DNA of 64,000 nt from an uncultured Methanosarcinales archaeon (lineage in GTDB: Archaea > Nanobdellota > Nanobdellia > Woesearchaeales > JAGVZT01): NCBI GenBank assembly GCA_964444505.1, contig CAYUHF010000007.1, positions 6,720 through 70,719 of the forward strand. The letters run 5' to 3'. Positions within the stretch are counted from its first letter, which is position 1. Each line of letters begins with the position of its first letter. A program made the translations under genes and the position numbers. The notes under the pieces were generated by a model. That model was not told where the DNA came from, made no database searches, and saw only the letters and a list, made by a program, of their open reading frames with translations. Positions 6,861-39,466 of the stretch are shown in pieces.

Positions 6861-8020
6861 TCCATAAGATGTTGTTCTTCTACTTTTGAGAAATATGCTG
6901 ATCCCAGTACTGCAATTCCTACCATCATAAAAGCTATACTAATGGATTTTTCCATGATCAGTCCGACTACCGGAAGAATCAAGGCCTGAAATAGTCTCTG
7001 AAAAACAGATATGGTTGATACTACTGTTGCCCTGTTTCCTGATTCAATGTATTTGTTCATGTAGCTCTGAAAAAGCACTTTTCTTGATAGCCCAAATCCA
7101 GAGATTAATACGAGCATTATGATCACAGGAACAAGATAACTGAATAATCCGATCAGAATGAATGCCAATCCTGGGATAATTGCACTCAGCAGAAGGTATT
7201 TCCTTTTTCCACCAATTGATTTTTCCAGCCAGCCAAAGCTGTTCATAAATATTATCTGGCTCCCGCTGATTGCTGCGTGTACAAAACCAAAGTATGCTAT
7301 TGGAACATTTATCTCCTTTAGAAGCGGCTGGTACATCCATATCATTGCAAAGCTTAGTGTGGATATTGCTATTGCATCAAACGAAAGTATCTGCAGTACC
7401 TTATGGTTTTTCAGATGGTGCCACCCTGACTTTACCATTTTGAGATATGATTCAGGCTTTTTTTCTACTTGTGGCTCTTTTAATGTAAGTGCAAGTATTC
7501 CTCCCAGTAAGAAGGGTACTGCCATAAACATCATTGTATATCTTAACCCAAAATAGTGTGCTATCAGGCTTCCTATGGGTGCTGCTGTCATAATCGCTAC
7601 CATTTCAAAAGTTCCAAGTCTTCCAAAGATTCTTTTTGATTTATCTTCCTGTCCAATCTGCTTTAATGTATCATAGACTAAGGCCTCAGTTGTTCCAGAA
7701 AAGAGTGCATTTGAGAATGCAAATAAGAACTCACCAATTATAAAAAGAAGCATTAGTGGATAGGAAGAGTAAATAACAGAAGCTACCGCTACAATAAGTG
7801 ATGCAAGGACTATTGTCTGCTTTCTTCCAAAATAGTCTGCCATTGCACCTGATGGAATTTCTAAAAACACAATAAATACTGAAAAAAGAGACTGCAAAAA
7901 TAATGCCTGGGAAACACTTATCTGTCCCCAGTCTGTAAAAAATATAACAAGCACACCTCCGATAAAATGAAAACTTCTAAGAAACCTAATCACATACATC
8001 TTCCAGATGTTTGATTTCAT
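6857..8020 (-). CDS. MFS transporter
   Basis: About 12 predicted TM segments with MFS-like loop motifs. Confidence 0.75.
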   Translation of the reverse strand: MKSNIWKMYVIRFLRSFHFIGGVLVIFFTDWGQISVSQALFLQSLFSVFIVFLEIPSGAMADYFGRKQTIVLASLIVAVASVIYSSYPLMLLFIIGEFLFAFSNALFSGTTEALVYDTLKQIGQEDKSKRIFGRLGTFEMVAIMTAAPIGSLIAHYFGLRYTMMFMAVPFLLGGILALTLKEPQVEKKPESYLKMVKSGWHHLKNHKVLQILSFDAIAISTLSFAMIWMYQPLLKEINVPIAYFGFVHAAISGSQIIFMNSFGWLEKSIGGKRKYLLLSAIIPGLAFILIGLFSYLVPVIIMLVLISGFGLSRKVLFQSYMNKYIESGNRATVVSTISVFQRLFQALILPVVGLIMEKSISIAFMMVGIAVLGSAYFSKVEEQHLMD

Positions 8021-9246
8021 AGAAACTCAACTGATGTGCTTTTGGTTCGGGTTTTTATGTACTTATTCTGTAAAACATCCTGGATTAGTTTTTCTGGTTC
8101 TGTATATTTTCTCTTGATTTCTGCAAAGATCCTGCCTTTTCTAACATAAGTTTCCTTGTGCTGCTCTTTGAATTTTTCAACGTGTCTTTTGTTTTTGAGC
8201 GGGGGTCCGGGGTGCTCCTTTATGATGTGGAGCTTTTTGTGGGGTACTATGTACCACAATATTCCCTTGTCTTTCCATTCCCATCCAGAATCAATTATTT
8301 TAAAATCATGGGATTTGAGCTGGTGCTTGATGTACTGGTAGGATTTCATGAGTTTTGCTCCCACAACATCTTTTTTGCCTTCTACTGGCTCTGCTTCTAT
8401 GTATATTAGTCTATTCTGTTTTGCTTTTTCCAACAGAGCTTGTTTTGTTAGTTCTTCTTTGTGAAAAAAATCTTTAGATGGGTCTTTAAGAAAATCTTTT
8501 GCTCGCGTTTTGAATTTTTTGAATTTTTTCATTGTCAGTGCTGCAGCTGCGTTTCTGTCTGGCTGTATTGGGTCTATTAAAATAAGCGGGCTTCTTTTGG
8601 ATTTGTTTATTTTTGTGCCATGGTTTTCAGGGTCAATTCTTGTGTATGGTTCCCAGTCCTGGGATGCTTTAAGCAGTTCCATAAAACCACCATAGTGGAT
8701 TGTAAGTATGTCCACAACATGTCCAGAGAATCCTCCAATATATGATTCTGCTCCATAGAGTCTGTTTGCTTTCATGAACTTTTTTGTGAGAATTATCTGG
8801 TCAATTAATTCAGGGTGGCTGGCGGTTTTTCTTTTTACCCAGTTTACGTGAAGTGGTGATGCGTCTGTTACATTTTCTGCCTGTTCAGGGCTTTTAATAT
8901 CAAGTACTGGTACAACCTCAAAATTAATTCCCTTATATTTAAATTTAAAGTAGTCTCTTGATCCTGGAACTCTTTTTGGTTCAAAGTTTTCCAAAACTTT
9001 TTCCAGTAAGATAGAAAGGTCTTCTTTTCTGTAGCTGTAATCAAACTGTGCAAAAAGGTCAACATCAAAGTCTCCCTTAAGCATTGTTCCTTTTGCTGCT
9101 GAGCCGCCAAGTGCAATTTTTGCATTAATGTTTTTTGTCTCAAAAGACATATCAATTTCCGAGATTACTTCTTCTACATTACCCAGTAGAATTTCTTTTT
9201 CCTTTTGGGATAGCTTGTTTTCTGTAATTATCTTTTGAAAATCCAT
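8017..9246 (-). CDS. cca: CCA-adding tRNA nucleotidyltransferase (archaeal class I)
   Basis: LGGSAAKGTMLKGDFDVDLF nucleotidyltransferase motif; 409 aa. Confidence 0.85.
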   Translation of the reverse strand: MDFQKIITENKLSQKEKEILLGNVEEVISEIDMSFETKNINAKIALGGSAAKGTMLKGDFDVDLFAQFDYSYRKEDLSILLEKVLENFEPKRVPGSRDYFKFKYKGINFEVVPVLDIKSPEQAENVTDASPLHVNWVKRKTASHPELIDQIILTKKFMKANRLYGAESYIGGFSGHVVDILTIHYGGFMELLKASQDWEPYTRIDPENHGTKINKSKRSPLILIDPIQPDRNAAAALTMKKFKKFKTRAKDFLKDPSKDFFHKEELTKQALLEKAKQNRLIYIEAEPVEGKKDVVGAKLMKSYQYIKHQLKSHDFKIIDSGWEWKDKGILWYIVPHKKLHIIKEHPGPPLKNKRHVEKFKEQHKETYVRKGRIFAEIKRKYTEPEKLIQDVLQNKYIKTRTKSTSVEFL

Positions 9247-9284
9247 AAAGTGTTCTGATAAGAATTAGTATAAAAAATTATCCC

Positions 9285-10670
9285 CTAGACTATGTACTTC
9301 CACCAGTTATTGTAGATTCCGTGTGTCTGACCTGGTTTTGTCGGGATGTGTCCAAGCCACCATTTCATGTAGCCATACTGGTTGCATCCCCATTCTGTAC
9401 AATCTATTGTTTTTTTGTCTCCAGTAAGGTCAGGATAATTATACCAGTCATCACAGTCTGACTCTACTTGTGCTGACCCTGTGTTGTATTCATAGTGGCA
9501 CTTTGCTGTGGGCGGGAAATGACAGTTACCGCAGTTTGCTTCTGGTTGAACTGGAGGCATATCATCACAGGCCCCGTAATTATATCTGTAGTAGTTTCCG
9601 TCAAAATCCTGCCAGAGTGCTGGCTGAAAATTCCTCATTGTCCCTTCTACTCTGTGACCCATATCATGAAGCATCTCTGTTACGCTTCTTTCATAATTAT
9701 ATCCCATGATGTGAAGTGGTTCTGTGCACGATGTGTCATCTATGACGGGCCCGTTTGTCCACCATGCATCTGGACCTGTCATGCAGGCTTCATAAAAACC
9801 AAAGTAAGGACCTCCAAACAGCCAAATTTCATCAACATTTCTTTCACATAAATCATAAGTCTCAATAACCCAGTTGTAATCCATGATATCTGCATCATGG
9901 CAGTTATCTCTCTCCTGCATACAATCCAGATATGTACTATCTGTGTACTGAAACCCGTCATTTTTTAAAGGAAAAAAGTCATATTCATCTTTTGATTGAA
10001 CAATATAGTTCACATAACCACCAGTTATCTCATTCATGTCGTCCATGTATTGGCTGATAAGTTCGTCAGGCTCATTCCAGCCATATAAAGATATCAGGTC
10101 ACCTGAATGCGACTCAATGTAAGGATTAAAGATTATTACTGCCACTTTCACATCTGCTATTTCTCCTTCATCATTGTTATCTTGATGATTAGGAAGGTCC
10201 GCAAGTGGGTAAGAAAGCAAGGCGCCTCGATTCACACCTCTGAGTGCATATTCAATCCTATTAATCCTGGATTCGAAACACAAAACATGCGGACTTGGTA
10301 TTCTCAGATCCTTAACTGTATGTGCTGACTCGAATTTACCATCTCTATAGAAGTAGATATTTTTTCCAGTACTGTAACTTTGTTCTGCATAAGGCATATC
10401 ATTAAAATCAGGATCTCCAGCCAAGTCTGCCATGCATACCTTGGTGGTCTTTGAAGGTATAGTTATTGAATACTTCTTAACTGAGCCAAAACTGGATTTT
10501 GAAATTTCAACACTTTCAGCAAGCTTTTTATTGAACTTTATTATCTGGGCCTGATGCGAACTTTCGAGCATGCCTTTTATTACCATATTGCCAAAGATAA
10601 CCACTATTGCAATAATTATGATGGACAGAATAAAAACTATTATTGTAGAGTTAATCTGGCCTCTTTTCAT
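9285..10670 (-). CDS. secreted Cys/Trp-rich protein with type IV pilin-like (class III) signal peptide
   Basis: The N-terminus is MKRGQ followed by a 22-aa hydrophobic stretch. The N-terminal 150 aa are paralogous to 11297..13120. The C-terminal domain is Cys-rich. Confidence 0.6.
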   Translation of the reverse strand: MKRGQINSTIIVFILSIIIIAIVVIFGNMVIKGMLESSHQAQIIKFNKKLAESVEISKSSFGSVKKYSITIPSKTTKVCMADLAGDPDFNDMPYAEQSYSTGKNIYFYRDGKFESAHTVKDLRIPSPHVLCFESRINRIEYALRGVNRGALLSYPLADLPNHQDNNDEGEIADVKVAVIIFNPYIESHSGDLISLYGWNEPDELISQYMDDMNEITGGYVNYIVQSKDEYDFFPLKNDGFQYTDSTYLDCMQERDNCHDADIMDYNWVIETYDLCERNVDEIWLFGGPYFGFYEACMTGPDAWWTNGPVIDDTSCTEPLHIMGYNYERSVTEMLHDMGHRVEGTMRNFQPALWQDFDGNYYRYNYGACDDMPPVQPEANCGNCHFPPTAKCHYEYNTGSAQVESDCDDWYNYPDLTGDKKTIDCTEWGCNQYGYMKWWLGHIPTKPGQTHGIYNNWWKYIV

Positions 10671-10694
10671 ACAGTTATAATAGTAGAATAGTAT

Positions 10695-11177
10695 TTAATA
10701 CTTATCCTGCTTGATGTTCATGATGTTTTCTTTTGCCTGCAGTTCCTTGAACCATGGCTCCAGCTGAATCTGGGGTTCTCTTTCAACAAATCTTTTAACA
10801 ATGGGAACTCCTTTTTCAAGAAGATTTGTGCAGTACCTGCTTGCCAGAAAAGTACTCATATTGGTCTTTGTGGCAATTTCCTCGTAGCTGAGGAAATCTT
10901 CTGATGTGTACAGGGCAAGAAAAACCTGTTTTTCTTTCTCACTTAGCTGAACTTCTCTGAGAGCATCTCTCACATACTCTAGCTCATCATCTGTGCAGAC
11001 CATCATAATTAACTCTTCGAGTTTTTCGTTTAATTTGTCAATTTTTCTCTCGAGTTTCTGGATGTATTCATAGTTGGCCTGGACTTCGTTTGTGTTCTGG
11101 TTTATTGAGTCAAGATGGTCATCCAGCTCTTCTTTTATTTTCTTGAATGTTCTTCTAAGTTTGGCTTCCCTCACCAT
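10695..11177 (-). CDS. putative transcriptional regulator (coiled-coil plus C-terminal winged HTH)
   Basis: The C-terminus (LSEKEKQVFLALY..SYEEIATKTNMSTFLASRYCTNLLEKGVPIV) resembles MarR/TrmB-like HTH. The gene lies between the two paralogous secreted-protein genes. Confidence 0.45.
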   Translation of the reverse strand: MVREAKLRRTFKKIKEELDDHLDSINQNTNEVQANYEYIQKLERKIDKLNEKLEELIMMVCTDDELEYVRDALREVQLSEKEKQVFLALYTSEDFLSYEEIATKTNMSTFLASRYCTNLLEKGVPIVKRFVEREPQIQLEPWFKELQAKENIMNIKQDKY

Positions 11178-11296
11178 AATATCTGGTTTTATCAGGGGGC
11201 TTAAATATTTTACTGAAGAGAGTATGACCTTAAACTAATTTAGTAGAATACTACTGCTTCCAGTTGGGAAAAATTGCATTTACTCAGCCTAAAGTT

Positions 11297-13120
11297 CTAA
11301 TAAAGATGAGGATATACCAGACTATTAATGTACTCCTCAATATTTGTATAACCATCACCGTCCCTATCCCCTGATGCGTCAAATGCATAATTAGGGTCCA
11401 AACCATGAGCAGTCTCCCATGTGTCAGGCATGCCGTCATTGTCTGTATCTACTGGGGGGGTGCCCGAACCAAGAGCAGGGTAACCGTAGGGGTTGTCTAT
11501 TATTCCGTCTCCATGGGTTGAGGTACCTGTTCTCACTTCCTGGACTATCCTCCTGTCAATTGCATCTCTACCTAAGCTTGCACCAGCCTTATCAAGGACT
11601 TCATCATATGCTGTGCTTGCATCAGTTGTTGTAACCTGTGCTACTGGCAGTGGCGAGCTTAATCGAGAAAGACCTCCATCCATTATCTGCCAGTCTGTTC
11701 TGGAGGATCCTTCCAATATATTTCCTGATGCATAGACTTCTGTTCTGCTGTTTCCCAAAAAAACATTATTCCTATTATTTGATGTTGCCGGACCGTTCTT
11801 AAAGTAGTTGTTCACAAAGTTAACATCAGGATATTCATCATCACCACTATACCCTGCCCTCATCCTCCAGTTGTATACAACATTGTTTCTGAAGTCAATA
11901 ATCGGACCTGGGTCATGATTGTCTTTTCCCGAAAACCTTGGATTCCTGCTCTTATGGTGAGCGTAAAGATTGTGATGGAAAGTAACTCCGTTTCCATCCA
12001 CCATGTCTCCAGCAAGAATAGAACCATATCCATGTTCGCCCTTATCATGACAATTATTATTAAGACTCTCAGTGATAAAAGTCCATTGAACTGTCACATC
12101 CTGTGTGTCATCTCCTGTAACAGAAAGAGTCTCATCTATGCTCCAGCTCGCGGAACAATGGTCAATTATGACATTTTGTGAGTTTTCCACTGACATGGAA
12201 TCATCTTCTTCATCAAATTGGCACTCCCAGTCACCAAGCCTGGTCCTGATGTATCTCACAACAATATCATGTGTGTCTTCAATCTCAAGAGATTGCTGTG
12301 CTAAAGTAATGCCCTCTCCGGGAGCTGTCTGGCCTGCTATTGTGAGATAAGGCTCATGTATTTTAAGTGAGTTAGTTAGATAAATTGTTCCGGCAACATC
12401 AAAGACACATATTCTAGGGCCACTGGCTTCAGTACATGCTCTAAGACTTCCTGGTCCTTCATTGTTCAGGTTTGTCACCTTAATTACTCTTCCGCCTCTG
12501 CCACCCTTGGAATATGCTCCAAACCCTTCTGCTCCGGGAAAGGCTGGAATCTGGTTTGCATCGGGTATATGGGGACTTGCCGGATCATGAACTGGATAAT
12601 CTGGCGGTTGATACTGCTGATTCGTCTGGATTATGTCAAGCACTTCAAAATATGGTATGAATAATGAACCATTCTGAACTCCCTCAAGCCCAAAATCAAT
12701 CATATCCTCTTCAAAGCATGCAAAGTATGGTTCTTGTAGCCGTAGATGCTCAATTTTATGGGCTTCAATAAATGTTTCATCATAGAAAAAAATGTTTTTT
12801 GTGTCCATTGCATTTTTCAAGTACGGGTAATTGTCAATTGCGGGATTGTTTCTGATCTCGGCTCTTTTTGAGTGGTCGAGTATGCAAATCTTGCTCACCT
12901 TGTCCGGAAGTTTCATCTGGAACCTTTTTCTTGCAGCATAATCTACCTTTAGAATGTCAACTCTTTCCTGAAACTCTTTCACAAATTTTATAATTTGTAC
13001 CTGGGAAGATGTATCTCCGGCACTGCTGAGAACTTTATAGCCAAAAACAACTACCATACCTATGATAATTATTGAGAGCATGAATACTATGACTGTTGAA
13101 TTGATTTGGCCAGATTTCAT
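11297..13120 (-). CDS. pectate lyase (PL1-like, right-handed beta-helix) with pilin-like signal peptide and C-terminal Ca-binding Asp-rich repeats
   Basis: PL1 signature GGRGGRVIKVTNLNNEGPGSLR..PRICVFDVAGTIYL..YLTIAGQTAPGEGI. The N-terminus is MKSGQ plus a hydrophobic stretch. The C-terminus has DTDNDGMPD/DGDGYTN repeats. Confidence 0.75.
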   Translation of the reverse strand: MKSGQINSTVIVFMLSIIIIGMVVVFGYKVLSSAGDTSSQVQIIKFVKEFQERVDILKVDYAARKRFQMKLPDKVSKICILDHSKRAEIRNNPAIDNYPYLKNAMDTKNIFFYDETFIEAHKIEHLRLQEPYFACFEEDMIDFGLEGVQNGSLFIPYFEVLDIIQTNQQYQPPDYPVHDPASPHIPDANQIPAFPGAEGFGAYSKGGRGGRVIKVTNLNNEGPGSLRACTEASGPRICVFDVAGTIYLTNSLKIHEPYLTIAGQTAPGEGITLAQQSLEIEDTHDIVVRYIRTRLGDWECQFDEEDDSMSVENSQNVIIDHCSASWSIDETLSVTGDDTQDVTVQWTFITESLNNNCHDKGEHGYGSILAGDMVDGNGVTFHHNLYAHHKSRNPRFSGKDNHDPGPIIDFRNNVVYNWRMRAGYSGDDEYPDVNFVNNYFKNGPATSNNRNNVFLGNSRTEVYASGNILEGSSRTDWQIMDGGLSRLSSPLPVAQVTTTDASTAYDEVLDKAGASLGRDAIDRRIVQEVRTGTSTHGDGIIDNPYGYPALGSGTPPVDTDNDGMPDTWETAHGLDPNYAFDASGDRDGDGYTNIEEYINSLVYPHLY

Positions 13121-14580
13121 CAGCTAATTTCAAAGCCATTTGCTTCTTTGATTATTGTTTTTGCAAACTCCATTTTTTCAGCGCTTTCTGCATAGACTGT
13201 ATAAATCAATTCTCCAGTTTCTACATTGTCCCCTTTGTGCTTTTCAAGGTAAATTCCTGCACCCTTATCAATGGGAGCTCCTGCTACTCTTGCAATTTTT
13301 GCTATTATCTTGTTATTGATATGAGATACTTTTCCCTTTTTTTCAGACTTTACTTCAAAGGTTTGTTCACCCAGGACAATTTTTGTTTCTGGATCACCAC
13401 TCTGTGCTTTAATTATTTCACACATTTTTTTATAGGCCTCTCCTGATGTTAGAATTTCTCTTGCCTTTTTTATGCTCCCGATAACACTTCCTGCAAGCAT
13501 TATTGACTTTTGTTCAAGGTCTTTTGGAGCTTTTTCATCCTGTTTTAGAACCCAGAGCACATCTCTTGCTTCAAGAGCTGGGCCAATCCCGTTACCTATC
13601 GGCTCAGATCCATCTGTTATAAGAACCTTCATTCTCATTCCAAGGGCTTTGCCGATTTTTTCAAACTTTTTTTTGTATTTTTTTGCGGTTCTCTTTTTCT
13701 CAATTTTTGCGTGTTTTCCACATGGAATATCAATTAATACATCTGTTGCATTGACTGCATGTTTTTTTGCAAGTACACTCGCAAGTACCATCCCCGGTGG
13801 GTCAAGACTAAGAGGATGTCTGAGTTTTATCAGTTTATCATCAGCTGATGCTAGTCCAAATGCACCACCCCATACAATACAGCCATTGGTTTCATTTACA
13901 ATCTGTTTCATCCTGTCAACTTCGATTGAAACATCTGCAAGTACTTCCATTGTATCGGCTGTTCCTGCAGGGCTTGTTATCGACCTTGATGATGTTTTTG
14001 GAATCTTCATTCCTGCTGCTGCAATTATGGGAACTATTACCATGGTCGTCCTGTTTCCGGGAACTCCCCCGACACAATGCTTATCCACTACTTTTTCTGC
14101 ATCTAGTTCCAGTTGTTTTCCGTTTTTTACCATGGCTTTGGTAAGATAAACTGTTTCATTATGAGTTAAGCCATTTAGATAGCAGCCTGAAACAAAGTAT
14201 GTCATCTCAACTCTACTCAATCTGTTTTCAACAACATCCTTTATTATCTCGTTGAATTCTTCTTCTGATAATTTTTGTCCTTTGAGTTTCTTTTTAATAT
14301 AATGTACTGAATCAGGTAAGCTCTCAAGAGAGATTTTGACTTCCTGGTCTCTTACTGCTCCCAGACACTCTAGTGCTTCTTCCATGAGTCCAATACTTCC
14401 TTCGGGCACTAGTCTCTGTGATTCAGCAATATCAATTATAGCAATAATATCACATGTTTCGGTTCTTATCTTTATTCTGTCTTCAAAATGCAAATCCATC
14501 TTCTGTGCATCTTTTTCATTTAGAATAGCAACTAGTGTGCTGCCTGTGGCAATATCAACATCTTTAACTTTCAGTTTCAT
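13120..14580 (-). CDS. deoA: AMP phosphorylase (thymidine phosphorylase family, archaeal long form)
   Basis: Pyrimidine-nucleoside phosphorylase motifs (GGVPGNRTT, SSRSITSPAGTADTMEV) plus the archaeal N-terminal extension; 486 aa. Confidence 0.8.
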   Translation of the reverse strand: MKLKVKDVDIATGSTLVAILNEKDAQKMDLHFEDRIKIRTETCDIIAIIDIAESQRLVPEGSIGLMEEALECLGAVRDQEVKISLESLPDSVHYIKKKLKGQKLSEEEFNEIIKDVVENRLSRVEMTYFVSGCYLNGLTHNETVYLTKAMVKNGKQLELDAEKVVDKHCVGGVPGNRTTMVIVPIIAAAGMKIPKTSSRSITSPAGTADTMEVLADVSIEVDRMKQIVNETNGCIVWGGAFGLASADDKLIKLRHPLSLDPPGMVLASVLAKKHAVNATDVLIDIPCGKHAKIEKKRTAKKYKKKFEKIGKALGMRMKVLITDGSEPIGNGIGPALEARDVLWVLKQDEKAPKDLEQKSIMLAGSVIGSIKKAREILTSGEAYKKMCEIIKAQSGDPETKIVLGEQTFEVKSEKKGKVSHINNKIIAKIARVAGAPIDKGAGIYLEKHKGDNVETGELIYTVYAESAEKMEFAKTIIKEANGFEIS

Positions 14581-26967: not shown

Positions 26968-27738
26968 ATGATTGCCACTTATGATGAGATTGAAAAAGCA
27001 TCTGAGATTGTGTACAGAGTTTTTAATCATGCTGTTTTCACTGATCCTGATTTTTATTCTGATTCCTCCCGTGTTCCTGACTATTTGGTATTGACTGAGT
27101 TCAACCAAAACCCTCATGAAAGACTAGGTCAGTTTAAGAGCCCCACAATAGATAGATATCTTAAAGTCTTTCCAGCTGGCGGGGTTATGGGAGCAAAGAG
27201 TTCTATTGAACTTTGCGTTGATAATGCAGAGTCAGATGGAAATTGTACAATTGAAGATTATCTTGACATGTTTTACAGAGGACCATATGAAGAAGGTTGG
27301 GCTCTTGGGATCTCTCCAATCATTGTGTTTAAGGGTGAATGCATTGCACAGTGTGTACAAGTTGATTTTGAGGTCGGACCGGACCACTATTCTACTGTGA
27401 AAGAAATGCTTACATCAAGACACCAGGCAGACAAAGACCTATGTTTTCCAACCGAAGGACTTTTTGTGGTAAGTTCTACTGAAGGTATGCACTTTCACTC
27501 ATCATTGTATTTTCCACGACCTTCTGGTAACTCCTGTGTATCTCATGGGTATGGTACTTTTCTTCTTTTGAACCATGATGAGCTAAGGCTTGTGGATGAC
27601 AGACAGATTGGACACAATCTGAGATCTCTTCATGAAGAATGGCCTGAAAATAAATTACCAATCGGTCCTTCTGAACTGGGTTGTCTTAGAATTACGAGAA
27701 GCAAAATAAAACCAAGCATGCCAGAAATTATTGATTAG
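26968..27738 (+). CDS. hypothetical protein
   Basis: 256-aa ORF divergent from the TGase-like gene. Confidence 0.4.
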   Translation: MIATYDEIEKASEIVYRVFNHAVFTDPDFYSDSSRVPDYLVLTEFNQNPHERLGQFKSPTIDRYLKVFPAGGVMGAKSSIELCVDNAESDGNCTIEDYLDMFYRGPYEEGWALGISPIIVFKGECIAQCVQVDFEVGPDHYSTVKEMLTSRHQADKDLCFPTEGLFVVSSTEGMHFHSSLYFPRPSGNSCVSHGYGTFLLLNHDELRLVDDRQIGHNLRSLHEEWPENKLPIGPSELGCLRITRSKIKPSMPEIID

Positions 27739-28361
27739 GGTACTTCAATATAATGCTGGTTTTTTTCCCAGTTTTCCCACGGGATTTCTCCAAATTCACA
27801 TTCACTGCATGTCCAATCAAGATATATCCAGCCATCGTTTTTGTATCTTCTTGGGGCTTCATCAAGCTTTATTCGAACATATGCATGTCCATGAACAATT
27901 ACCAGCTGAGCATCAACACCTACAGCTTCCATCAAAGATGCAAGGAGTATTGAACCTGACTCACAGTCTCCGCCACCAGAGGACATAACTTTCACAGGAT
28001 GCTCAATATATTCTGTGCTTAATGGATCAGAGATGTACTGGATTCTGTCCCTTACAAAATAGTAGATTGCCTTTGCATAGCATATCTTGTTGTCCTCACA
28101 AGAGACTGATGCAATTTTATTTGCTGAATATTTAACTTCTGATGGGATTACTGCTGATCTTAAACCATCAACTTCTGAAAAGTTTTGGGAAGGGTCCAGA
28201 ACTTCACTTATCTCTGGAATGCTTGATGGAGATGGATTTTGTCCAATTCCATAATAGGGCACAATAGTTACTATAAGTATAAAAACAAGAATAAGTGCAA
28301 GCATAATCCTAATTGGATTTCTCCAGCTTTGGTCCTCTTGTTCAGACTCTTCCATATTCAT
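27735..28361 (-). CDS. membrane-anchored transglutaminase-like cysteine protease
   Basis: N-terminal TM segment plus a Cys-His-Asp core (GGDCESGSILLASLMEAVG..VIVHGHAYVRI..DWT). It lies 26 nt downstream of the giant gene on the same strand. Confidence 0.65.
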   Translation of the reverse strand: MNMEESEQEDQSWRNPIRIMLALILVFILIVTIVPYYGIGQNPSPSSIPEISEVLDPSQNFSEVDGLRSAVIPSEVKYSANKIASVSCEDNKICYAKAIYYFVRDRIQYISDPLSTEYIEHPVKVMSSGGGDCESGSILLASLMEAVGVDAQLVIVHGHAYVRIKLDEAPRRYKNDGWIYLDWTCSECEFGEIPWENWEKNQHYIEVP

Positions 28362-28387: not shown

Positions 28388-31300
28388 TTACTTAAAAACA
28401 TCGATAACGAGTTTAGTTGGCTTTCCTCTGAAAACAACTACTCTTACTTGTCTTACCAGATGTTCAACATCAGATGCTGCTGTGTCAACCACTCTTAGTT
28501 CTTGGGTTTCGTAGGGTTCTCCCTCACAGCAGATAATTTCATGTGTACTATTATATGCTCTTACCCATCCATCATTTTTGTTGTTGCAGATTCTTGTTGT
28601 ATTTGCATCAAAGAATTCACATCCAACCTTGCCGTTACATTCCCTATGACATATTCTGTCATTAATGTAAGTACAGTCTGATTCACATGGTTCAAATTCC
28701 CAGACTATTGTGAAGTTAATTTCTTTCACATCGAAGATTTCTACTTCTTGTTTTGTTACTGTATCTGACCTAAAGCCAATTTTTGATGCCATTAGGTCGT
28801 ATGTAGCATTAGCAATCACGTAGCTTTCATAATAACCTGAACCATTGGTTGTAACATTGTATCTATAAGTTACTTTCCTTACATCATCATAGCCTACAAA
28901 TTCCACAGTGGCATTTGGTACTCCCTGTCCTGTAGAGTTCTTGACCCAGCCAAAGAATACTGCATTTGTGTCGCCAAAGTGCCATTCACCAGGATCACAC
29001 AACTCCTGCCAGCCATCCCCGTCAATATCTGTGTAGATTTGATCGTGCAGATCATGCTGGTTGTATATTCTTATCCTGCACTCACCGTCAACCCACTGAC
29101 ATCTGTCGTCTTCATTACACTCTTTCATATCAATCCTAGGATTATCATTATCTTCATACTGTGAACATTCACTTGCTAACTGCTGTTCATCTAATTCGAG
29201 CTGTGCATAAACAATATCATAGTCTTTGTAGCACTTTCCTTCAAACACACAATCAGTTTCATTATCACAGCAGGCATTATCTGAATAATTTATCCTGTCC
29301 ATAAAAAATCCTTCAATAAGTGATTCTTTGCTTGTGCTTACTACTTCACGGAACCTAAATGTTTCTCCAAGATCATCACCACAGCATTCTGTTGATGTGC
29401 TCAGATCATATTCACCAAATGAGAAAGTCTCTCCATTTTGTGTCCAGTTCAAATCACAGAGTTGACATTGGGCACTACCACTATCACAATCATACCACCT
29501 GTCAAATCCTGGTTCGCACAATGCTATATTGTCATTTCCTGTCGGATTAAAGTTGTTTGCATTTTCGTTATCTTCATAACAGGCACCACTTACATTAACA
29601 CAATCATTCGTGTTATTGCAGCATCCATTTGTATTTGGGTCATCGGGCCACACCATTGAAATATCATTGTTGACATCTGCATTTCTTTTCAAATACTTGT
29701 ATGTCTCGTTAAGATCATCTCCACAACACTCATAGTCATCAAGAACATTTGTGTATTCGCCTACAAACTCACCTGCTCTTGTCCAATGTGCTTCAAGTCC
29801 TACTGTACCCAGTAGTGCATTGCATCCAGTACACTTGGCCATTTCATAATCACAATCAATCCACTGGTCACTTTCTAATGCCTCTCCACAATAAGCTACT
29901 CTGTCATAATCATCTGTATCATTAAGGAATCCTGCATTATTCTCCTGCACACATAGATTGTCTTTGTCCACACAGTTATTGTCTTCCCTGCAGCAAGCTT
30001 CTGTGTTGAGCTCCTTGTTGACAAATGCATTTGCCCCCCCAACATATTTTGTAAAGTTTTTGTAGTACTCAAATGAGTCATCTCCACAGCATCTGGGTGT
30101 GGTCAGGTCATAGTACTCTCCAACATTTGATTCTCCGGCAGTGACGGCATTGTGATCCGTATCAGGAGCATAAGTTCTATCACCATAAAGTTTTGGAGGA
30201 TTCTGTGGACCGCAAATATCTGCGCACCAGAAGTCCATAAAGTCAGCATCGTCACAGTCAAGCCAGGTTCCATTACCGTTTGAATCTAAGCCACTATAGC
30301 AATGTGAGTAAGTGTCATTACCTCCAATGTTCAGATTACCAGTTGTTGCTTCGATTATATCTGATTGACCTTCATTTTGAGTGTTTGACGAGTAGCAATT
30401 GCTTCCGTTCACACAGTCTGTCTGTGAATCACAGCAGGCATCTTCATTGTCATCAAATTCAATTTCGCTTAGTCCACTCACATGTTCTTCAAGTGATTCT
30501 TCATATCTGATAAACTCTGGAACGTCATCTCCGCAACATTCATCTCCTCCCACTTCTCCGCCTATCTGCCAGCCATAATCATTTTCTAAACAGTAATTCT
30601 CATCATCAATATCATACCATCCACCTTCATAGCACATCACTTCATGCTGTCCACCGTCTACCCAAATTGTAGTACTATTTTCAAAGCATTCTCCGTTGAA
30701 GACACAATCTGTTTCTTTATCACAGCATGCATCATCGTTAGTGTCAGTAACAATACTGGAATCTCCCTGATCTTGAACATCTCTGAATACATAATATTCT
30801 GAAAGATCATCACCACAGCATTCTGTTGATGTGCTGAGATCATATTCGCCAAATGAAGATGTCTCCCCATTTTCTGCATAGTCAAATCCACACTGGTTTT
30901 CACAGAAACTCTGTGAGCCGTCACAATCTCTCCATTCTCCTGAAACACACCTTTCTCCTGCTACTGTATCCAAGTTAACATCTAACATTGTGCCTGAGGC
31001 ATAGCAATCACCGTCAAATACACAATCTCCTGAATTATCACAACATGCCTCATCCCCACTATTTGATCCTCCAGTACAGTTCTCATTTGTTCGGTCATTG
31101 CACGTACTAGCTGCATAATCTCTACGGTAGTTGTATTCTTCATTTGCATCATCACCGCAACAACACATCTGACTGGCGTGGTCTCCTGAAGCAATGTTGC
31201 AGAAGTTGGGTCTGGTGTGACCAAAAGCATCATAGTAATATCCATCTTCTGATACTGCTTCTCCACCCACATTCCAGAAGTATGTGGGTTCGCATACACC

Positions 31301-34300
31301 TATTGCGTAATCGAGATTAAGCCAGCTCCCATCGTCTCCCTGACTTTCTGGCAGACAGAAATAATCTTCTCTTCCATCGTTATCATAATCAATATATTCT
31401 CCTGGATCATAGCAAATTCCATTGAAAACACATTTATCAGCGCCTGTACAGCAGGCATTATCTGTGGTATCATTCTGTGCTTTTCCATGGTCTTCTTCCT
31501 GCGGCATATTTGGCCTGAATAATCTGAAATAATTATAGTACTCGTCTTCATCATCACCACAGCAATTAAGTTGTCCTCCCCCAGCTGTCCAGTCTATACC
31601 CATATCACCTGCTGTTGTGTCACAGGTTGAATCACAGTATGACTGGAGTTCATCTGGATCCTGCCATCGTGCATTGCTGCAATAAGACTTGTGGCCTGTA
31701 CCAAAACCATGGCATTGCCCCTGTACAACACAATCACCAGTTGTATTAACACAGTCTGTTGCAGAGCTACAGCAAGCTTCGTCTGCCCCAGAACACCAAG
31801 CATTATTGGAATTGTCTGAATCATAGCATTCCACATAATTTTCAAAGAAATCATCACCACAACAGTTTGCGACGCCTGACTCAAATATCCAGGAAGTACT
31901 ATAACAACTGCTTCCCGGAGGACAAGCATCCATAAACTCATCTATATTATTATCAACCTGATCAGAAGGAACAAGTCCAGTCTCATTATCACAACATGCA
32001 GAGTCAGGAATTCCCCCATCCGTAAAGGTATCTGGATTGCACACTTGGTCTTCACACTGGCAAGTATCATAATCACATTCTTGGTAACCAGAACATGCTG
32101 TGCTTCCATCACATGTTGCAGTGCAATTCTCAAAAGTACATACTGCAGGCCCACAATCTGCTGCCATATCCCCAGTATCTTCTACACATGTACCGTAGTT
32201 TGGATAGTATTTATTTCCATCACATTCTGTATCACACCATCTGCAACCTGCTGTTGCACAATCAGTTGGATTATCAATTTCAGAACAAGTACCAGGGATA
32301 CATGTTATTGACTGGTTTTTATCTGTTCCATTCTGGTGCGAACGATCAATAGTCTCAGCATCATTACCACTATATACACCGCAAACAATATGTACTGTAT
32401 CCTGACCGTCACAATCTATTTGCTCATTATTGAAATATACATCATCATATGTTGCACTCCACGTATCATCTCCATCTTCCCAGCCCAGATCTTCGTCACC
32501 TGAACTATAAACACCATTCTGGTCTCTGTCAATGTAAGCAAAGATACTATCATATCCCTGACCTGATGGTGCTGTGGGGTCAACTGTACAGGTAATATCA
32601 ATATCACTACCTGATACAACTTCTGGTGCCGAGAGTGAGATATCAATTATTCCGACATCACATCCATCATCCCCGTGAATCCCGTCACGGTTATCATAGT
32701 CTGTTTCGCCATCTCCATCATTATCAATACCATCATTGCAGTTACCTGCGATGTGAGATTCCTCTGTCTGGCAGTGCGGATCCTCAAGATCAGTCAATCC
32801 GTCGCAGTCATTATCTATTCCATCATCACATGTTAATTCCCTATCCCATTCAGTCTGGCAGTGACCAGTAAGGTCAACACAATTACTTAAATCTGAACAG
32901 CATCTTTCAGGACCCAAACCAGCTGTCACATAAATCTCATCAACGTCATCTCCACAGCATTCAGTTTCACCTGGCTGATACTCTCCGTGGCCAAAATCTT
33001 CTCCTGATTCAACATAGCAGTCTATACCTGAACAGTCAGGGAGGTTTGTCCCGGAATCACAGTAAGCGCATGTAGTTGACGAGTTATCACAATCATACCA
33101 CTTGCCATCACCAGCTTCAGCTATACAGACTGCATCAGATTCTGAGTCACCAATACCAAGATGATATCCTATATTTAGTGCAGCATAACAATCACCATTA
33201 TAAACACAGTCATCAGTGTTGTCACAGCATGAATTATCTGTAGTAACATCTGCTGGACAAAACATTCCTGCTCCAGATGTGTGGCAATGCCTGTACTCAA
33301 AAAACTCATCTTGGTCATCACCACAGCAAAGTCCCTGTGTTCCTACACCAAACCCAATATCATAGCATGAACTTCCAGGTGGACAGTTTTCTGCAAAGTT
33401 TTCTATTGGCTGCGAAACATCCACGTTTGGATAGTATCCTGTTTCATTATCACAACATTGTTGGCCTGCGTCAGGGTCGCATTCCTCGTCTGTGCACAAG
33501 CAGGTATCAGTATCGCAGGTTGCAGGAAGTGTGCATCCTCCGCTCATACCACACCCGTCCACAATACACTTTCCTTGTGTACAAACTGGGTCTGCACATC
33601 CAGTGCTTGCATCCACACATGTAAGATAGTCTGGATAATATTTTGGTCCATCACACTCCTGATCACACCAAGTACATTGTGGATCTGCATTACAATCTCC
33701 CTCTTCAAGGTCTCCACACCCTTCCAAACAGGTAACTGTCTGCCACACGTCAGGACCGTTCTGGTAGGATCTATTATATTTTTCTCTGGAATCATTATAG
33801 ACACCACATGCAATATCCACACTCGGTGCACTTAGGCAGTTTATTGTTTCATTTCTGAAAACAACTTCATCATCATTCGGCCAGTAATCATCTGAATCCC
33901 ATGTAAAATCTGTATCTCCGGCGTCATATATTCCGTTTCCATTTCTGTCAATATACGCAAAGATACTATCATAACCTGTGCCTGCTGGAGCAGTTGGATT
34001 GACATTACATGTTATGTTAAGTTTTCTCCCAGAGATTACTTCTGTATCTGAAAGTGTGATTGAATCAATTCCGACAGGACAACCATCGTCTCCATGAGGA
34101 GATGGCCCACTAGCTCCCCTGTTTTGAGTGTCATAATCCCATTCTCCATCACAATCTGTATCATTACCGTCATTACACTGGCTCTCTTGCACACCAAACT
34201 CATCTCTGCAGAGGTTTAGGCTGTCAACACAGTTCTTACCATCCTGACAACATCTTGGGTCTCCAACTCCGTCCGAGACATAATTTTCATTATCATCATC

Positions 34301-38785: not shown

Positions 38786-39466
38786 TTGGGTGGTAGATTG
38801 ACTATTGACAGAGTATTCGAGATTTGTTTTGAGGGACCTATTGCATCAGGTAAAACAACCTGCGCCAGACATCTTAAAAAAAACTTGGGTGCCGGCGGAT
38901 TTAGATTAGTGCATGAAGACCCATATGAGAATGAGTTCTTTGGGGATTATTACAGGGCTATGGTGGCTGTGCGTGCAGGAAAACCCGTTCCCTCAGATAT
39001 TGAAGAAGGAATATTTTACATGGCCCAGGACAGGTTTCTTGACTTGACTGTAGAGAGAGAAAGTGCAGGCAATAGTGTGAATAGGGTATCAGACCGGCAT
39101 GTATGGGCTGACATTAATATCTTTGCTGAGGGACTTATAGAAAGAGGTTTGTTTTCACCAGAACACGCCTGCATGTACAGAAAAAAAGCATCAACTATAA
39201 ATATTAATTATCCTGACTTTTTGGTATATCTTGCCACAAGTGATCTGGTTTGTTACCATAGGGCACAAAACCGAAGCAGAGATGAAGAGATGAATGTTTC
39301 ATTTTCGCATTTCGAGTTTATTGGTCAGCGGTACAGGGAGCTGATGCCCACATATCCGGGAAGAGTTTTAACACTTCCAACTGATGAACTTAATCTTGAA
39401 TCTGAGCCTGATGATATCAACTATATGCTTGAACAAGTAGCAGGAGCTCTGGCAAAATTAAATTGA
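38786..39466 (+). CDS. deoxynucleoside kinase (dNK family)
   Basis: P-loop FEGPIASGKTT plus VSDRHVWAD (ERS/DRS-type motif); 226 aa. Confidence 0.7.
   Translation: MGGRLTIDRVFEICFEGPIASGKTTCARHLKKNLGAGGFRLVHEDPYENEFFGDYYRAMVAVRAGKPVPSDIEEGIFYMAQDRFLDLTVERESAGNSVNRVSDRHVWADINIFAEGLIERGLFSPEHACMYRKKASTININYPDFLVYLATSDLVCYHRAQNRSRDEEMNVSFSHFEFIGQRYRELMPTYPGRVLTLPTDELNLESEPDDINYMLEQVAGALAKLN

What the first reader, a model, noticed from the sequence alone, without database searches (positions are those of the whole stretch)
9285..13120. Two paralogous pilin-like-signal-peptide secreted proteins, one a PL1 pectate lyase, flanking a wHTH regulator
- Both proteins start MK[RS]GQINST followed by a ~22-residue hydrophobic segment. 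This gives a short n-region, Gly at -1 and Gln at +1.
- That pattern is typical of archaeal class III (type IV prepilin, EppA/PibD-type) signal peptides.
- The two proteins share a ~120-aa N-proximal domain.
- The longer one carries a bona fide PL1 pectate-lyase beta-helix and Asp-rich Ca-binding repeats.
- The other has a Cys/Trp-rich C-terminal domain.
- A coiled-coil/wHTH regulator gene sits between them.
- A polysaccharide lyase mounted on a pilin-like N-terminus, as in bindosome-style surface assembly, is unusual. It suggests cell-surface-tethered glycan degradation.
Basis: partly seen in the sequence, partly recalled or inferred. Interest (0 to 1): 0.6.

Follow-up and report, generated by a model that had tools for sequence, protein, structure and literature searches.

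The report
Archaeal pilin-like modules fused to enzymes
Two neighbouring genes of an uncultured archaeon each join a complete pilus-subunit-like module to an enzyme-like domain (a pectate-lyase-type sugar-chain cutter, and an unknown protease-like fold), which suggests enzymes held on the cell surface or on a pilus rather than released.

Summary
On the minus strand, gene A (9285..10670, 461 aa) and gene B (11297..13120, 607 aa) share their first ~155 residues (41% identity, E 2e-34). Both begin MK[RS]GQINST followed by about 22 hydrophobic residues.

This N-terminal part is more than a signal peptide. It is a full-length copy of a large, unannotated family: at least 1176 cluster representatives, and no Pfam or NCBIfam model.
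- Many members are stand-alone proteins of about 160 aa.
- They carry a conserved K-[KR]-[GAS]|Q-[IVL] site, like the EppA-type prepilin cleavage sites of Methanococcus.
- The predicted structure is a 57-residue N-terminal helix plus a beta-sheet head with two conserved cysteines.
- In other contigs, members sit in clusters of several genes with class III-like N-termini.

The C-terminal cargo differs between the two genes.
- B carries a PL1 (subfamily-2-like) lyase domain (PDB 9buj, E 2e-53) with the R-x-P-x-R motif intact, plus TSP3 repeats.
- A carries a conserved domain of unknown function. Its fold is weakly metzincin-like but it lacks HExxH.

Best reading: these are archaeal "modular pilins" with enzyme cargo.

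Not shown: no prepilin peptidase or pilus ATPase was found in the window or near relatives, no solved pilin matched, and the regulator call is weak.

The parts
11297..13120 (-). Gene B, 607 aa: pilin-like module, Pro-rich linker, PL1 lyase domain, TSP3 repeats
   Evidence: ORF. Domain evidence.
13109..13120 (-). B leader MKSG (residues 1-4). The predicted prepilin-peptidase cut lies after Gly4, giving Gln at +1.
   Evidence: Family logo K-[KR]-[GAS]|Q. Leaders of 4-5 residues are the mode in the family. PibD cleaves 3-4-residue leaders (PMC4307647). Ser at -2 is atypical.
13040..13108 (-). B hydrophobic segment (residues 5-27), the N-terminal half of the long helix
   Evidence: Sequence. AlphaFold helix over residues 3-59.
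12647..13120 (-). B pilin-like module (residues 1-158): helix 3-59 plus a beta-sheet head with conserved Cys79 and Cys135
   Evidence: Profile search found 1176 relatives. HMM without window sequences gives E 5e-41. Model pLDDT 86.6. Conserved Cys.
12551..12646 (-). Pro-rich linker (residues 159-190)
   Evidence: Sequence ...QYQPPDYPVHDPASPHIPDANQIPAFP.... It lies between the end of the family HMM match and the start of the PelZ/PfPL1 match.
11519..12550 (-). PL1 polysaccharide-lyase domain (residues 191-534). Motifs: DDSMSV at 306, IIDHCS at 318, SRNPR at 391 (Arg392, Arg395).
   Evidence: PDB 9buj E 2.2e-53 and VexL E 5e-11. PelZ model E 1.4e-52 over residues 191-534. Motif positions. 9buj is a PL1 subfamily 2 enzyme (PMC11229556).
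11327..11449 (-). Two Asp-rich TSP3-type (calcium-binding-type) repeats, residues 558-598
   Evidence: Pfam TSP3_bac. Motifs. The C-terminal part of B (residues 161-607) matched giant surface proteins encoded upstream of family pilins in other loci. I infer, without having inspected the alignments, that the TSP3 repeats are what matched.
10695..11177 (-). Gene R, 160 aa: coiled-coil N-half (about residues 5-60), possible Lrs14/Sta1-like helix-turn-helix (residues 77-129, coordinates 10791..10949)
   Evidence: Only sub-threshold hits. No homologue in 22 related loci.
9285..10670 (-). Gene A, 461 aa: pilin-like module plus a conserved Cys/Trp-rich domain of unknown function
   Evidence: ORF. Domain evidence.
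10206..10670 (-). A pilin-like module (residues 1-155). Leader MKRG, Gln5 at +1, Cys79 and Cys131.
9288..10157 (-). A C-terminal domain (residues 172-461): DEIW at 280, HDMGHRVE at 335, CGNCH at 380
   Evidence: 42 homologues, none with a Pfam model covering this domain; most of those inspected have ordinary signal peptides. Model pLDDT 90.8, pTM 0.90. All top-50 Foldseek hits are zinc metallopeptidases, nearly all metzincins, but weakly: E about 1e-3, TM 0.21-0.42. Motif statistics.

Best explanation
A and B are archaeal 'modular pilins'. Each is a complete type IV pilin-like module joined by a linker to an enzyme-like cargo domain.

**The pilin-like module** has a very short class III-type leader, a hydrophobic N-terminal helix, and a small disulfide-type beta-sheet head.

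**The cargo** is a PL1 polysaccharide lyase with calcium-binding-type TSP3 repeats in B, and a conserved hydrolase-like domain of unknown activity in A.

**Proposed mechanism (inferred, not shown):**
1. The proteins insert into the membrane through the Sec route.
2. A prepilin peptidase of the EppA/PibD kind removes MK[RS]G, leaving Gln at +1.
3. The hydrophobic helix then either keeps the protein anchored in the membrane with the enzyme outside, or lets a type IV filament machinery build it into a pilus. Given the bulky cargo, the tip is the most likely position.

Either way, the lyase and the second enzyme act while tethered to the cell, on uronic-acid polysaccharides and on a second, unknown substrate.

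Gene R between them is probably a small DNA-binding protein. Its link to A and B is only positional.
For: **Shown**
- A and B share residues 1-155 (E 2e-34).
- That region matches a family of at least 1176 representatives at E<=1e-3, and 192 at E<=1e-10. Among the 149 listed sequences, 69 are 150-180 aa.
- An HMM of 78 stand-alone members, built without the window sequences, covers B (E 5e-41) and A (E 1e-39) end to end.
- 132 of 150 members have the site. Position -2 is K or R in 121 of 132, position -1 is G, A or S, and +1 is Q in 122 of 132.
- The AlphaFold model of B 1-165 has pLDDT 86.6, a helix over 3-59, then beta-strands.
- Two Cys are conserved across the family.
- In L001, L014, L017 and L018 the family gene lies in a conserved cluster with 3-8 further genes that have class III-like N-termini.
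- The PL1 domain matches 9buj at E 2e-53 and keeps SRNPR and IIDHCS.

**From the literature**
- EppA substrates have KGQI, KGQV or RAQI, and EppA needs Gln at +1 (PMC4371748).
- PibD cleaves leaders of 3-4 residues (PMC4307647).
- Class III signals occur on binding proteins, proteases and redox proteins (PMC2910488).
- Bacterial modular pilins carry grafted functional modules and are thought to sit at the tip (PMC8179133).
- Epd-like 'system 1' type IV filament machineries occur in DPANN archaea (10.64898/2026.04.22.720090).
Against: - No prepilin peptidase, platform protein or secretion ATPase is present in the window. It has only two polytopic membrane proteins, an MFS and an AI-2E transporter. 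A Walker-A pattern typical of these secretion ATPases (G..GSGKT) found none in the window or in loci L001-L022.
- Foldseek of the N-module against the PDB found nothing; the best E was 0.6.
- A family profile against PDB sequences gave only a non-significant hit to a bacterial PilE1 helix, E 0.84.
- Pfam and NCBIfam pilin or class III models do not match.
- B has Ser at -2, where a positive charge is considered typical (PMC3387779).
- The FlaFind-like regex I recall matches only 28 of 150 family members, and neither A nor B.
- Among 53 longer family members, Pfam recognises only adhesin-type extensions (PKD, BACON, cohesin). Enzyme cargo is therefore rare, and could be a lineage-specific oddity.
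Confidence: 0.65

Rival explanations
1. A and B are plain type II (signal-anchor) membrane proteins. The N-terminal hydrophobic helix is never cleaved, and the conserved ~130-aa region is a membrane-proximal stalk that holds the enzymes at the surface. No pilus machinery is involved.
For: - No peptidase or assembly genes are in the window or near relatives.
- No match to solved pilins.
- The leader is only 4 residues. B lacks the charged -2 residue, and a strict FlaFind-like rule fails.
Against: - An uncleaved anchor does not explain why [GAS] at -1 and Gln at +1 are kept in a family whose members are only about 20-25% identical overall.
- It does not explain why many members are pilin-sized stand-alone proteins.
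- It does not explain why members sit in clusters of several genes with the same kind of N-terminus.
Confidence: 0.22
2. The N-termini are ordinary Sec signal peptides cut by signal peptidase I, so the enzymes are released into the medium.
For: - Most homologues of A's C-terminal domain that were inspected do have ordinary Sec-type signal peptides.
- B has a possible small-residue site (SSAG|D) after the hydrophobic stretch, by eye.
- The ORF at 63242..63934 has an N-terminus that by eye resembles a type I signal peptidase. It has no Pfam hit, so this is untested.
Against: - The hydrophobic stretch is about 22-25 residues and continues into a predicted 57-residue helix. That is too long for a typical Sec h-region.
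- The region after it is a conserved folded module, not a cleavable peptide.
- A has no matching small-residue site at the same place.
Confidence: 0.05
3. The fusions are artefacts, from assembly chimeras or a lost stop codon joining a pilin gene to a downstream enzyme gene, and so have no function as fusions.
For: Both proteins are singletons in the protein collection. No other pilin-PL1 fusion was seen among the 150 best family members.
Against: - There are two independent fusions with different cargo and different linkers, both in intact ORFs in a compact co-directional gene row.
- Many other family members also have long C-terminal extensions, up to 1446 aa.
- Pieces of the same contig were assembled independently from run SRR15425350, though these cover only the window edges.
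Confidence: 0.03

Closest known systems
Bacterial modular type IV pilins (Streptococcus sanguinis PilB and PilC; survey of more than 1,200 proteins; PMC8179133)
   Same: The architecture is the same: an N-terminal pilin module with a class III leader, a short linker, and a grafted functional module not specific to pili. In bacteria this is proposed to be displayed at the filament tip. One bacterial architecture even carries a peptidase domain.
   Different: Those are bacterial and are defined by the IPR012902 N-methylation motif, which is not detected here. Their cargo is mostly binding modules such as vWA and lectins. Here the host is an archaeon, the pilin module belongs to an unannotated family, and the cargo includes a PL1 polysaccharide lyase.
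Methanococcus maripaludis Epd pilins, substrates of the prepilin peptidase EppA (DUF361 / QXSXEXXXL group)
   Same: The cleavage-site type is the same: K/R, then G/A, then Gln at +1 followed by I, V or L (KGQI, KGQV, RAQI). There is a polar residue (Q, E or N) around +5. Several pilin-like genes occur in one cluster.
   Different: The DUF361 spacing (S at +3, E at +5, L at +9) is only partly kept. The family has S or G at +4, mostly Q at +5, and Y at +9. No hit to that family appeared in any Pfam scan. No EppA gene was seen. Epd pilins have no enzyme cargo.
Sulfolobales bindosome sugar-binding proteins (GlcS, AraS, TreS) with class III signal peptides
   Same: A non-pilin functional protein carries a class III N-terminus. 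Its gene lies away from the assembly genes, and it is thought to be surface-assembled by a type IV filament machinery.
   Different: The bindosome cargo is an ABC-transporter binding protein encoded next to its transporter. It carries only the signal and helix, not a full pilin head domain. Here the cargo is enzymatic, no ABC transporter is adjacent, and a whole pilin-like module is present.
PL1 subfamily 2 pectin/pectate lyases (PfPL1 = PDB 9buj; PelZ of Dickeya; BT_4115/4116/4119)
   Same: B is homologous over about 295 residues (E 2e-53). It keeps the Arg-x-Pro-x-Arg segment that holds the catalytic arginine, and the IIDH and DDS acidic motifs.
   Different: The known enzymes are bacterial, use ordinary signal peptides, and are released or exported by type II secretion. 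B is archaeal, sits behind a pilin-like module, and ends in TSP3 repeats. It scores far below the PelZ equivalog cut-off (179 against 840 bits). Its substrate is unknown.
Metzincin metallopeptidases (adamalysin/ADAM, TACE, fragilysin)
   Same: The model of A's C-terminal domain retrieves only zinc metallopeptidases among its 50 best PDB matches, nearly all of them metzincins. The two conserved His residues (335 and 339) lie four apart on a predicted helix, like HExxH.
   Different: The similarity is weak (E about 1e-3, TM 0.21-0.42). The motif is [H/E]-[D/N]-x-G-H-R-x-E, not HExxHxxGxxH. The first His is Glu in 20 of 43 homologues, and the catalytic Glu position is Asp, Asn or Ser. Membership is not supported.

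Membership tests
Archaeal class III signal peptide / type IV pilin-like proteins | Short charged leader with K/R at -2 and G/A at -1, directly before the hydrophobic stretch | tested here: met
   A has M-K-R-G|Q, so it meets the feature. B has M-K-S-G|Q: Gly at -1, but Ser at -2 and Lys at -3. In the family, -2 is K or R in 121 of 132, and -1 is G (66), A (43) or S (23).
Archaeal class III signal peptide / type IV pilin-like proteins | About 20 hydrophobic residues after the cut that start a long N-terminal alpha-helix (alpha1, about 50 residues) | tested here: met
   Residues 5-27 are hydrophobic. The AlphaFold model has one helix over residues 3-59, with block pLDDT of 71-94 over residues 11-60.
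Archaeal class III signal peptide / type IV pilin-like proteins | Globular beta-sheet head packed on the helix, resembling solved pilins | tested here: inconclusive
Archaeal class III signal peptide / type IV pilin-like proteins | Positive call by FlaFind or an equivalent predictor | tested here: inconclusive
   FlaFind itself could not be run. The regex as I recall it ([KRDE][GA][ALIFQMVED][ILMVTAS]x3) rejects A (Asn at +3) and B (Ser at -2, Asn at +3). It matches only 28 of 150 family members.
Archaeal class III signal peptide / type IV pilin-like proteins | A prepilin peptidase (PibD/FlaK/EppA) encoded in the genome | not testable with these tools
   None is in the 64-kb window. The window's genome is not among the species representatives searched. 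Only about 3 kb beyond the window ends was recovered.
Archaeal class III signal peptide / type IV pilin-like proteins | Genomic linkage to pilus genes (other pilins, ATPase, platform protein) | tested here: inconclusive
   Relatives lie in conserved clusters with 3-8 further class III-like genes (L001, L014, L017, L018). No secretion ATPase motif was found in the window or in loci L001-L022. A and B themselves have no pilin-like neighbours.
EppA-type (Gln +1) pilins, DUF361 group | Gln at +1, required by EppA | tested here: met
   Gln5 in both A and B. In the family, Gln is at +1 in 122 of 132. The requirement is stated in PMC4371748.
EppA-type (Gln +1) pilins, DUF361 group | QXSXEXXXL motif or a match to the DUF361 Pfam model | tested here: not met
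   A and B read Q-I-N-S-T-[IV]-I-V-F. The family has S or G at +4, Q, E or N at +5, and Y at +9. No hit to that family appeared in any Pfam scan.
Polysaccharide lyase family 1 (PL1) | Homology to the PL1 parallel beta-helix catalytic domain | tested here: met
   9buj E 2.2e-53 (residues 180-474), VexL E 5e-11. PF00544 is above its gathering score. PelZ model E 1.4e-52.
Polysaccharide lyase family 1 (PL1) | Catalytic arginine segment (R-x-P-x-R) and conserved acidic motifs | tested here: met
   B's S391-R-N-P-R395 aligns with SRTPR of PfPL1 and QRNPR of VexL. IIDHCS at 318 and DDSMSV at 306 align with IIDHCS and EDSMSV of PfPL1. The paper's residue numbers (Arg220, Arg235) could not be mapped onto the construct numbering.
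Polysaccharide lyase family 1 (PL1) | CAZy/dbCAN subfamily assignment and lyase activity | not testable with these tools
   No dbCAN models are available. The closest solved relative is a subfamily 2 enzyme. B is not a PelZ equivalog (179 against 840 bits).
Metzincin / zincin metallopeptidases (C-terminal domain of A) | HExxH zinc-binding motif (HExxHxxGxxH in metzincins) | tested here: not met
   The motif is H335-D-M-G-H339-R-V-E342. Across 43 homologues, position 335 is H (22) or E (20), and 336 is D (26), N (11) or S (4). H339 is kept in 42, R340 in 43, and E342 in 41.
Metzincin / zincin metallopeptidases (C-terminal domain of A) | Catalytic-domain fold | tested here: inconclusive
   All top-50 Foldseek hits are zinc metallopeptidases, nearly all metzincins (probability up to 0.99). 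However, E is about 1e-3, TM is 0.21-0.42 and rmsd is 5.6-13.6 A.
Sulfolobales bindosome binding proteins | Cargo is an ABC-transporter substrate-binding protein encoded next to its transporter | tested here: not met
   The cargo domains are a PL1 lyase and an unknown domain. The neighbours are a CCA-adding enzyme, an AMP-phosphorylase-like gene, an MFS transporter and an AI-2E transporter.
Modular pilins (in the sense of PMC8179133) | An N-terminal pilin module fused by a linker to a functional module not specific to pili | tested here: met
   The module boundaries come from independent matches. The family HMM covers residues 2-153, the PL1 match starts at 180-191, and a Pro-rich linker lies between them. 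The bacterial signature IPR012902 / N_methyl is absent.
Winged-helix regulators of the Lrs14/Sta1 kind (gene R) | Significant match to a helix-turn-helix model | tested here: inconclusive
   HTH_11 19.4 bits (cut-off 25). Sta1 19.4 bits (cut-off 80). Lrs14 E 0.033. PDB 6cmv E 0.26. All cover residues 77-129.

The most novel reading that the evidence does not exclude
A 'catalytic pilus'. In a small, probably host-dependent archaeon, a type IV filament carries a polysaccharide lyase and a second hydrolase as tip subunits, or as subunits built into the filament. It would use them to cut through the capsule, biofilm matrix or envelope of a partner cell or substrate at a distance from its own surface.

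The pilin module used belongs to a large, so far unannotated archaeal pilin family with its own conserved gene cluster. That cluster also holds a class III-like protein with a VanY/M15 cell-wall peptidase domain (L014).
Probability: 0.2. Interest if true: 0.8.

Novelty: new variant of a known kind. Interest (0 to 1): 0.5.

Why it matters
Type IV filaments are known to carry binding modules: adhesins, lectins, and sugar-binding proteins in the Sulfolobus bindosome. A filament subunit or pilin-anchored protein that carries a polysaccharide lyase would add polymer degradation to what these filaments do. It would also give a simple way for very small archaea to keep scarce enzymes attached to the cell.

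The work also exposes a large pilin-like family with no model in Pfam or NCBIfam: at least 1176 representatives at the 50% identity level. A standard class III rule, as I recall it, would mostly miss this family. Surveys of archaeal pili may therefore undercount such systems in uncultured lineages.

The second cargo domain is a well-conserved secreted domain of unknown function. It is found in archaea (Bathyarchaeota) and bacteria (Anaerolineae, Lysobacter), and is a clean target for biochemical work.

Tried and rejected
- **Word-indexed homology search with the N-module alone:** no hits. The same tool with an 80-sequence alignment gave only 10 hits. The exhaustive profile search was what revealed the family.
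- **Genome collection searches:** with A1, no relative was found, so the window's organism could not be named. With A7, one 5.3-kb contig labelled 'uncultured Methanosarcinales archaeon' was found, and it was uninformative.
- **Exact look-up of A:** no contig on record. Cluster look-up gave no names.
- **Foldseek and PDB-sequence searches of the N-module:** negative. A neighbouring small pilin-like protein was also negative.
- **Contexts of homologues of A's C-terminal domain** (Lysobacter, two metagenome bins): no conserved neighbourhood, so no functional clue.
- **Giant protein comparison:** I considered that the window's 3425-aa protein is the counterpart of the giant proteins upstream of family pilins. 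BLASTP shows no significant similarity, so I rejected this.
- **Gene R as a conserved partner:** no homologue in 22 related loci, so I rejected this.
- **PfPL1 residue numbers:** mapping the published Arg220 and Arg235 onto the alignment failed. I therefore rely on motif conservation only.
- **Literature searches** for pectate lyases in DPANN archaea, or for glycan-degrading enzymes with class III signals: nothing specific.

Full report
**What is there**

The minus strand between 9285 and 13120 holds three co-directional ORFs:
- B: 11297..13120, 607 aa.
- R: 10695..11177, 160 aa.
- A: 9285..10670, 461 aa.

They lie in a tight gene row. An AMP-phosphorylase-like gene (13120..14580) lies upstream of B, and its stop codon overlaps B's ATG by one base. 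An archaeal-type CCA-adding enzyme (8017..9246), an MFS transporter and an AI-2E transporter are the other neighbours. Both A and B start at the first possible start codon with MK[RS]GQINST and about 22 hydrophobic residues. Their first ~155 residues align at 41% identity, E 2e-34.

**The shared N-terminus is a whole module, not only a signal**

A word-indexed search found nothing. An exhaustive profile search of 1.84 billion cluster representatives found 1176 proteins at E<=1e-3 and 192 at E<=1e-10.
- Of the 149 listed sequences, 69 are 150-180 aa long. The rest carry the same region at the N-terminus of proteins up to 1446 aa.
- An HMM built from 78 stand-alone members, leaving out the window sequences, matches B (E 5.4e-41, residues 2-153) and A (E 1.2e-39) over its full length.
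- No Pfam or NCBIfam model matches any member tested.
- The window contains no further member.

**Class III character**

In 132 of 150 members the hydrophobic stretch is directly preceded by a conserved site:

| Position | Residues (of 132) |
|---|---|
| -3 | K 94 |
| -2 | K 68, R 53 |
| -1 | G 66, A 43, S 23 |
| +1 | Q 122, E 10 |
| +2 | I, V or L |
| +5 | mostly Q, E or N |

The hydrophobic stretch that follows reads roughly V-F-I-Y-I-L.
- Leaders are mostly 4-5 residues long.
- This is the pattern of the experimentally studied EppA substrates of Methanococcus maripaludis (KGQI, KGQV, KGQL, RAQI). EppA requires Gln at +1 (PMC4371748).
- PibD cleaves leaders as short as 3-4 residues (PMC4307647).
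- Overall identity in the family is only about 20-25%, so keeping this site needs a functional reason. An uncleaved anchor would not supply one.

Against this reading, B has Ser at -2, where a positive charge is considered typical (PMC3387779). The FlaFind-style regex that I recall from memory rejects A and B (Asn at +3) and accepts only 28 of 150 members. The real program could not be run.

**Structure of the N-module**

AlphaFold2 on B residues 1-165, with a 12-sequence alignment, gave mean pLDDT 86.6.
- One helix spans residues 3-59. Beta-strands and short helices follow.
- This is the helix-plus-head layout of type IV pilins.
- Two cysteines (B: 79 and 135; A: 79 and 131) are conserved across the family and lie in predicted strands. 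This fits a disulfide but does not prove one.
- Foldseek against the PDB found no match (best E 0.6). A family profile against PDB sequences gave only a non-significant hit to the N-terminal helix of a bacterial PilE1 (E 0.84).

Fold membership is therefore suggested, not shown.

**Genomic context of relatives**

Relatives were fetched from metagenome and genome contigs. Among loci L001-L022, nineteen carry exactly one family member each.

In L001, L003, L004, L014, L017 and L018 the gene sits in a conserved order:
1. A giant secreted protein of 1050-2770 aa.
2. The family gene.
3. A protein of about 340 aa with K-[GA]|F-E-[IM]-Q-F.

In the longer loci (L001, L014, L017, L018) further genes follow:
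4. One or two proteins of about 160-180 aa, with K-A|Q-I-Q-I-F-E-T or K-[AS]|Q-x-E-I-[LM]-G-L.
5. In L014 and L018, pairs of proteins of about 100-120 aa with K-A|Q-G.

This looks like a multi-pilin operon, as in the 11-gene Epd cluster. None of these neighbours has a Pfam model. One shows a faint match to the N-terminus of the bindosome pilin-like protein BasB (E 0.011).

No secretion ATPase motif occurs in the window or in loci L001-L022. The window has only two polytopic membrane proteins, both transporters. The machinery and the peptidase were therefore not found. For this organism the question cannot be settled with the sequence available.

The relatives come from archaeal contexts. L002 has an archaeal-type CCA-adding enzyme and NMD3. 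By eye, L011 has MBF1-like and RadB-like ORFs. Several relatives come from small-filter-fraction groundwater samples. This fits DPANN-type archaea but is not proven.

**Cargo of B**

Residues 180-474 match the PL1 subfamily 2 lyase PfPL1 (PDB 9buj) at E 2.2e-53, and the Vi-antigen lyase VexL at E 5e-11.
- The NCBIfam PelZ model matches residues 191-534 at E 1.4e-52. This is far below its equivalog cut-off.
- S391-R-N-P-R395 aligns with SRTPR of PfPL1 and QRNPR of VexL, the segment that holds the catalytic arginine.
- IIDHCS (318) and DDSMSV (306) are also kept.
- PfPL1 is proposed to use a metal-independent arginine mechanism with metal-assisted substrate binding (PMC11229556).
- I could not map that paper's residue numbers onto the construct.
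- A Pro-rich linker (residues 159-190) separates the module from the lyase.
- The protein ends in two TSP3-type Asp-rich repeats (558-598).
- The C-terminal part of B (residues 161-607) matched the giant proteins encoded upstream of family pilins elsewhere (E 1e-8 to 1e-10). I infer, without having inspected the alignments, that the TSP3 repeats are what matched.

The substrate is unknown. PL1 members act on pectin-type and other alpha-1,4-linked galacturonan-type (uronic-acid) polymers.

**Cargo of A**

Residues ~172-461 belong to a conserved family with no Pfam model. It has 42 homologues, with named members from Bathyarchaeota, Anaerolineae and Lysobacter. Most of those inspected have ordinary Sec-type signal peptides, and some are fused to FN3, Kelch or other modules.
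- The AlphaFold model is confident (pLDDT 90.8, pTM 0.90).
- Its 50 best PDB matches are all zinc metallopeptidases, nearly all metzincins, but the match is weak (E about 1e-3, TM 0.21-0.42).
- The helix motif is [H/E]-[D/N]-x-G-H-R-x-E rather than HExxH.
- E281, R340, H339, E342 and H384 are nearly invariant.

I read it as a candidate metal-dependent hydrolase of unknown specificity, not as a metzincin. Gene neighbourhoods of three homologues gave no clue. No other homologue carries the pilin-like module.

**Gene R**

The N-half gives only weak, sub-threshold matches to coiled-coil proteins over residues ~5-75. Residues 77-129 give only sub-threshold hits to helix-turn-helix models (HTH_11, sigma-70 region 4, Sta1, Lrs14) and to the Lrs14-like structure 6cmv (E 0.26). 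No homologue occurs in the 22 related loci. 'Regulator' is plausible. A functional tie to A and B is unsupported.

**How it most likely works**

What is shown:
- Two paralogous proteins consist of a complete pilin-like module, a linker and a cargo domain.
- One cargo is a PL1 lyase with its key motifs intact.

What is inferred:
- Cleavage after Gly4 by an EppA- or PibD-type peptidase.
- Then either membrane anchoring by the helix with the enzyme outside, or incorporation into a type IV filament. The tip is the likely position, because the cargo is bulky. This follows what has been argued for bacterial modular pilins (PMC8179133) and the Sulfolobus bindosome.

I give this 0.65. The main rival is an uncleaved signal anchor with a conserved stalk, at about 0.22. 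Release after signal peptidase I cleavage (0.05) and artefactual fusion (0.03) are unlikely.

**Novelty**

Several related things are already known:
- Class III signals on non-pilin proteins have been known since the FlaFind survey: binding proteins, proteases and redox proteins (PMC2910488).
- Modular pilins with more than 260 architectures are described in bacteria, including one with a peptidase domain.
- A 2026 survey of archaeal type IV filament systems extends bindosome-like binding proteins widely. It does not mention enzymatic cargo: zero occurrences of hydrolase, protease, catalytic or degrad-.

Within the family itself, Pfam sees only adhesin-type extensions (PKD, BACON, cohesin, Ig-like) in 53 longer members. 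A weak reprolysin-like hit occurs in one other member. A VanY/M15 domain sits on a class III-like N-terminus in L014.

The window thus shows a new variant of a known kind: archaeal modular pilins with enzyme cargo, built on an unannotated pilin-like family.

Interest is moderate (0.5). This is a good lead for people who study archaeal surface filaments and DPANN-type lifestyles, but it is not a surprise in principle. The key steps, processing and assembly, are untested.

Noticed in passing
window 28388..38665 (-) and 27735..28361 (-): A 3425-aa Cys-rich secreted giant protein whose only Pfam hit is a CarboxypepD_reg domain near the C-terminus. It is followed by a transglutaminase-core protein. 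It has no significant similarity to the giant proteins that precede family pilins in other loci.
   Followed up: partly
L014 1933..17572; L017 366..12537; L018 4039..18178; L001 6858..11941: A conserved, entirely unannotated gene cluster. It holds a class III-like protein of 430-716 aa, a giant secreted protein, the family pilin, and 3-8 further genes with class III-like N-termini, including pairs of ~100-120-aa candidates for a major pilin. No Pfam or NCBIfam hits.
   Followed up: partly
L014 18076..19209: A 377-aa protein with a class III-like N-terminus (KKG|IGLEWYMLIVAV) and a VanY/M15 D-Ala-D-Ala carboxypeptidase domain, at the end of the pilin-like cluster. This is a second example of an enzyme on such an N-terminus, here a bacterial-cell-wall peptidase type in an apparently archaeal contig.
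   Followed up: no
L002 581..2325 (GCA_003561825.1, PWVO01000086.1) compared with window 8017..10670: A stand-alone family pilin lies directly next to the CCA-adding enzyme gene, as gene A does in the window, though in the opposite relative order.
   Followed up: no
window 39649..40809 (+), with 38960..39466 and 40802..43372: A 386-aa ORF with an MtrA-like N-half and a thymidylate-synthase-like C-half, next to a deoxynucleoside kinase. By eye only, several neighbouring ORFs have dTMP-kinase-like N-termini. This looks like an unusual nucleotide-salvage cluster.
   Followed up: no
window 11327..11449 (-); L003, L009, L012, L014, L017, L019 giant ORFs: The C-terminal part of B matches (E 1e-8 to 1e-10) the giant surface proteins encoded immediately upstream of family pilins. 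I infer that B's TSP3 repeats are the shared part, because in L014 such repeats precede a C-terminal membrane anchor. The domain coordinates of the matches were not inspected.
   Followed up: partly
family-wide (P0044-P0192): Positions +3 to +5 after the predicted cut are mostly polar (Q, S, N, G). A strict FlaFind-type pattern, as I recall it, would therefore miss about 80% of members. This may explain why the family is unannotated.
   Followed up: partly
L008 6304..8023: In one bacterial-looking metagenome contig, the homologue of A's C-terminal domain lies directly after a gene with an N_methyl (prepilin-type) motif and an SBP_bac_10 domain. This may be coincidence.
   Followed up: no
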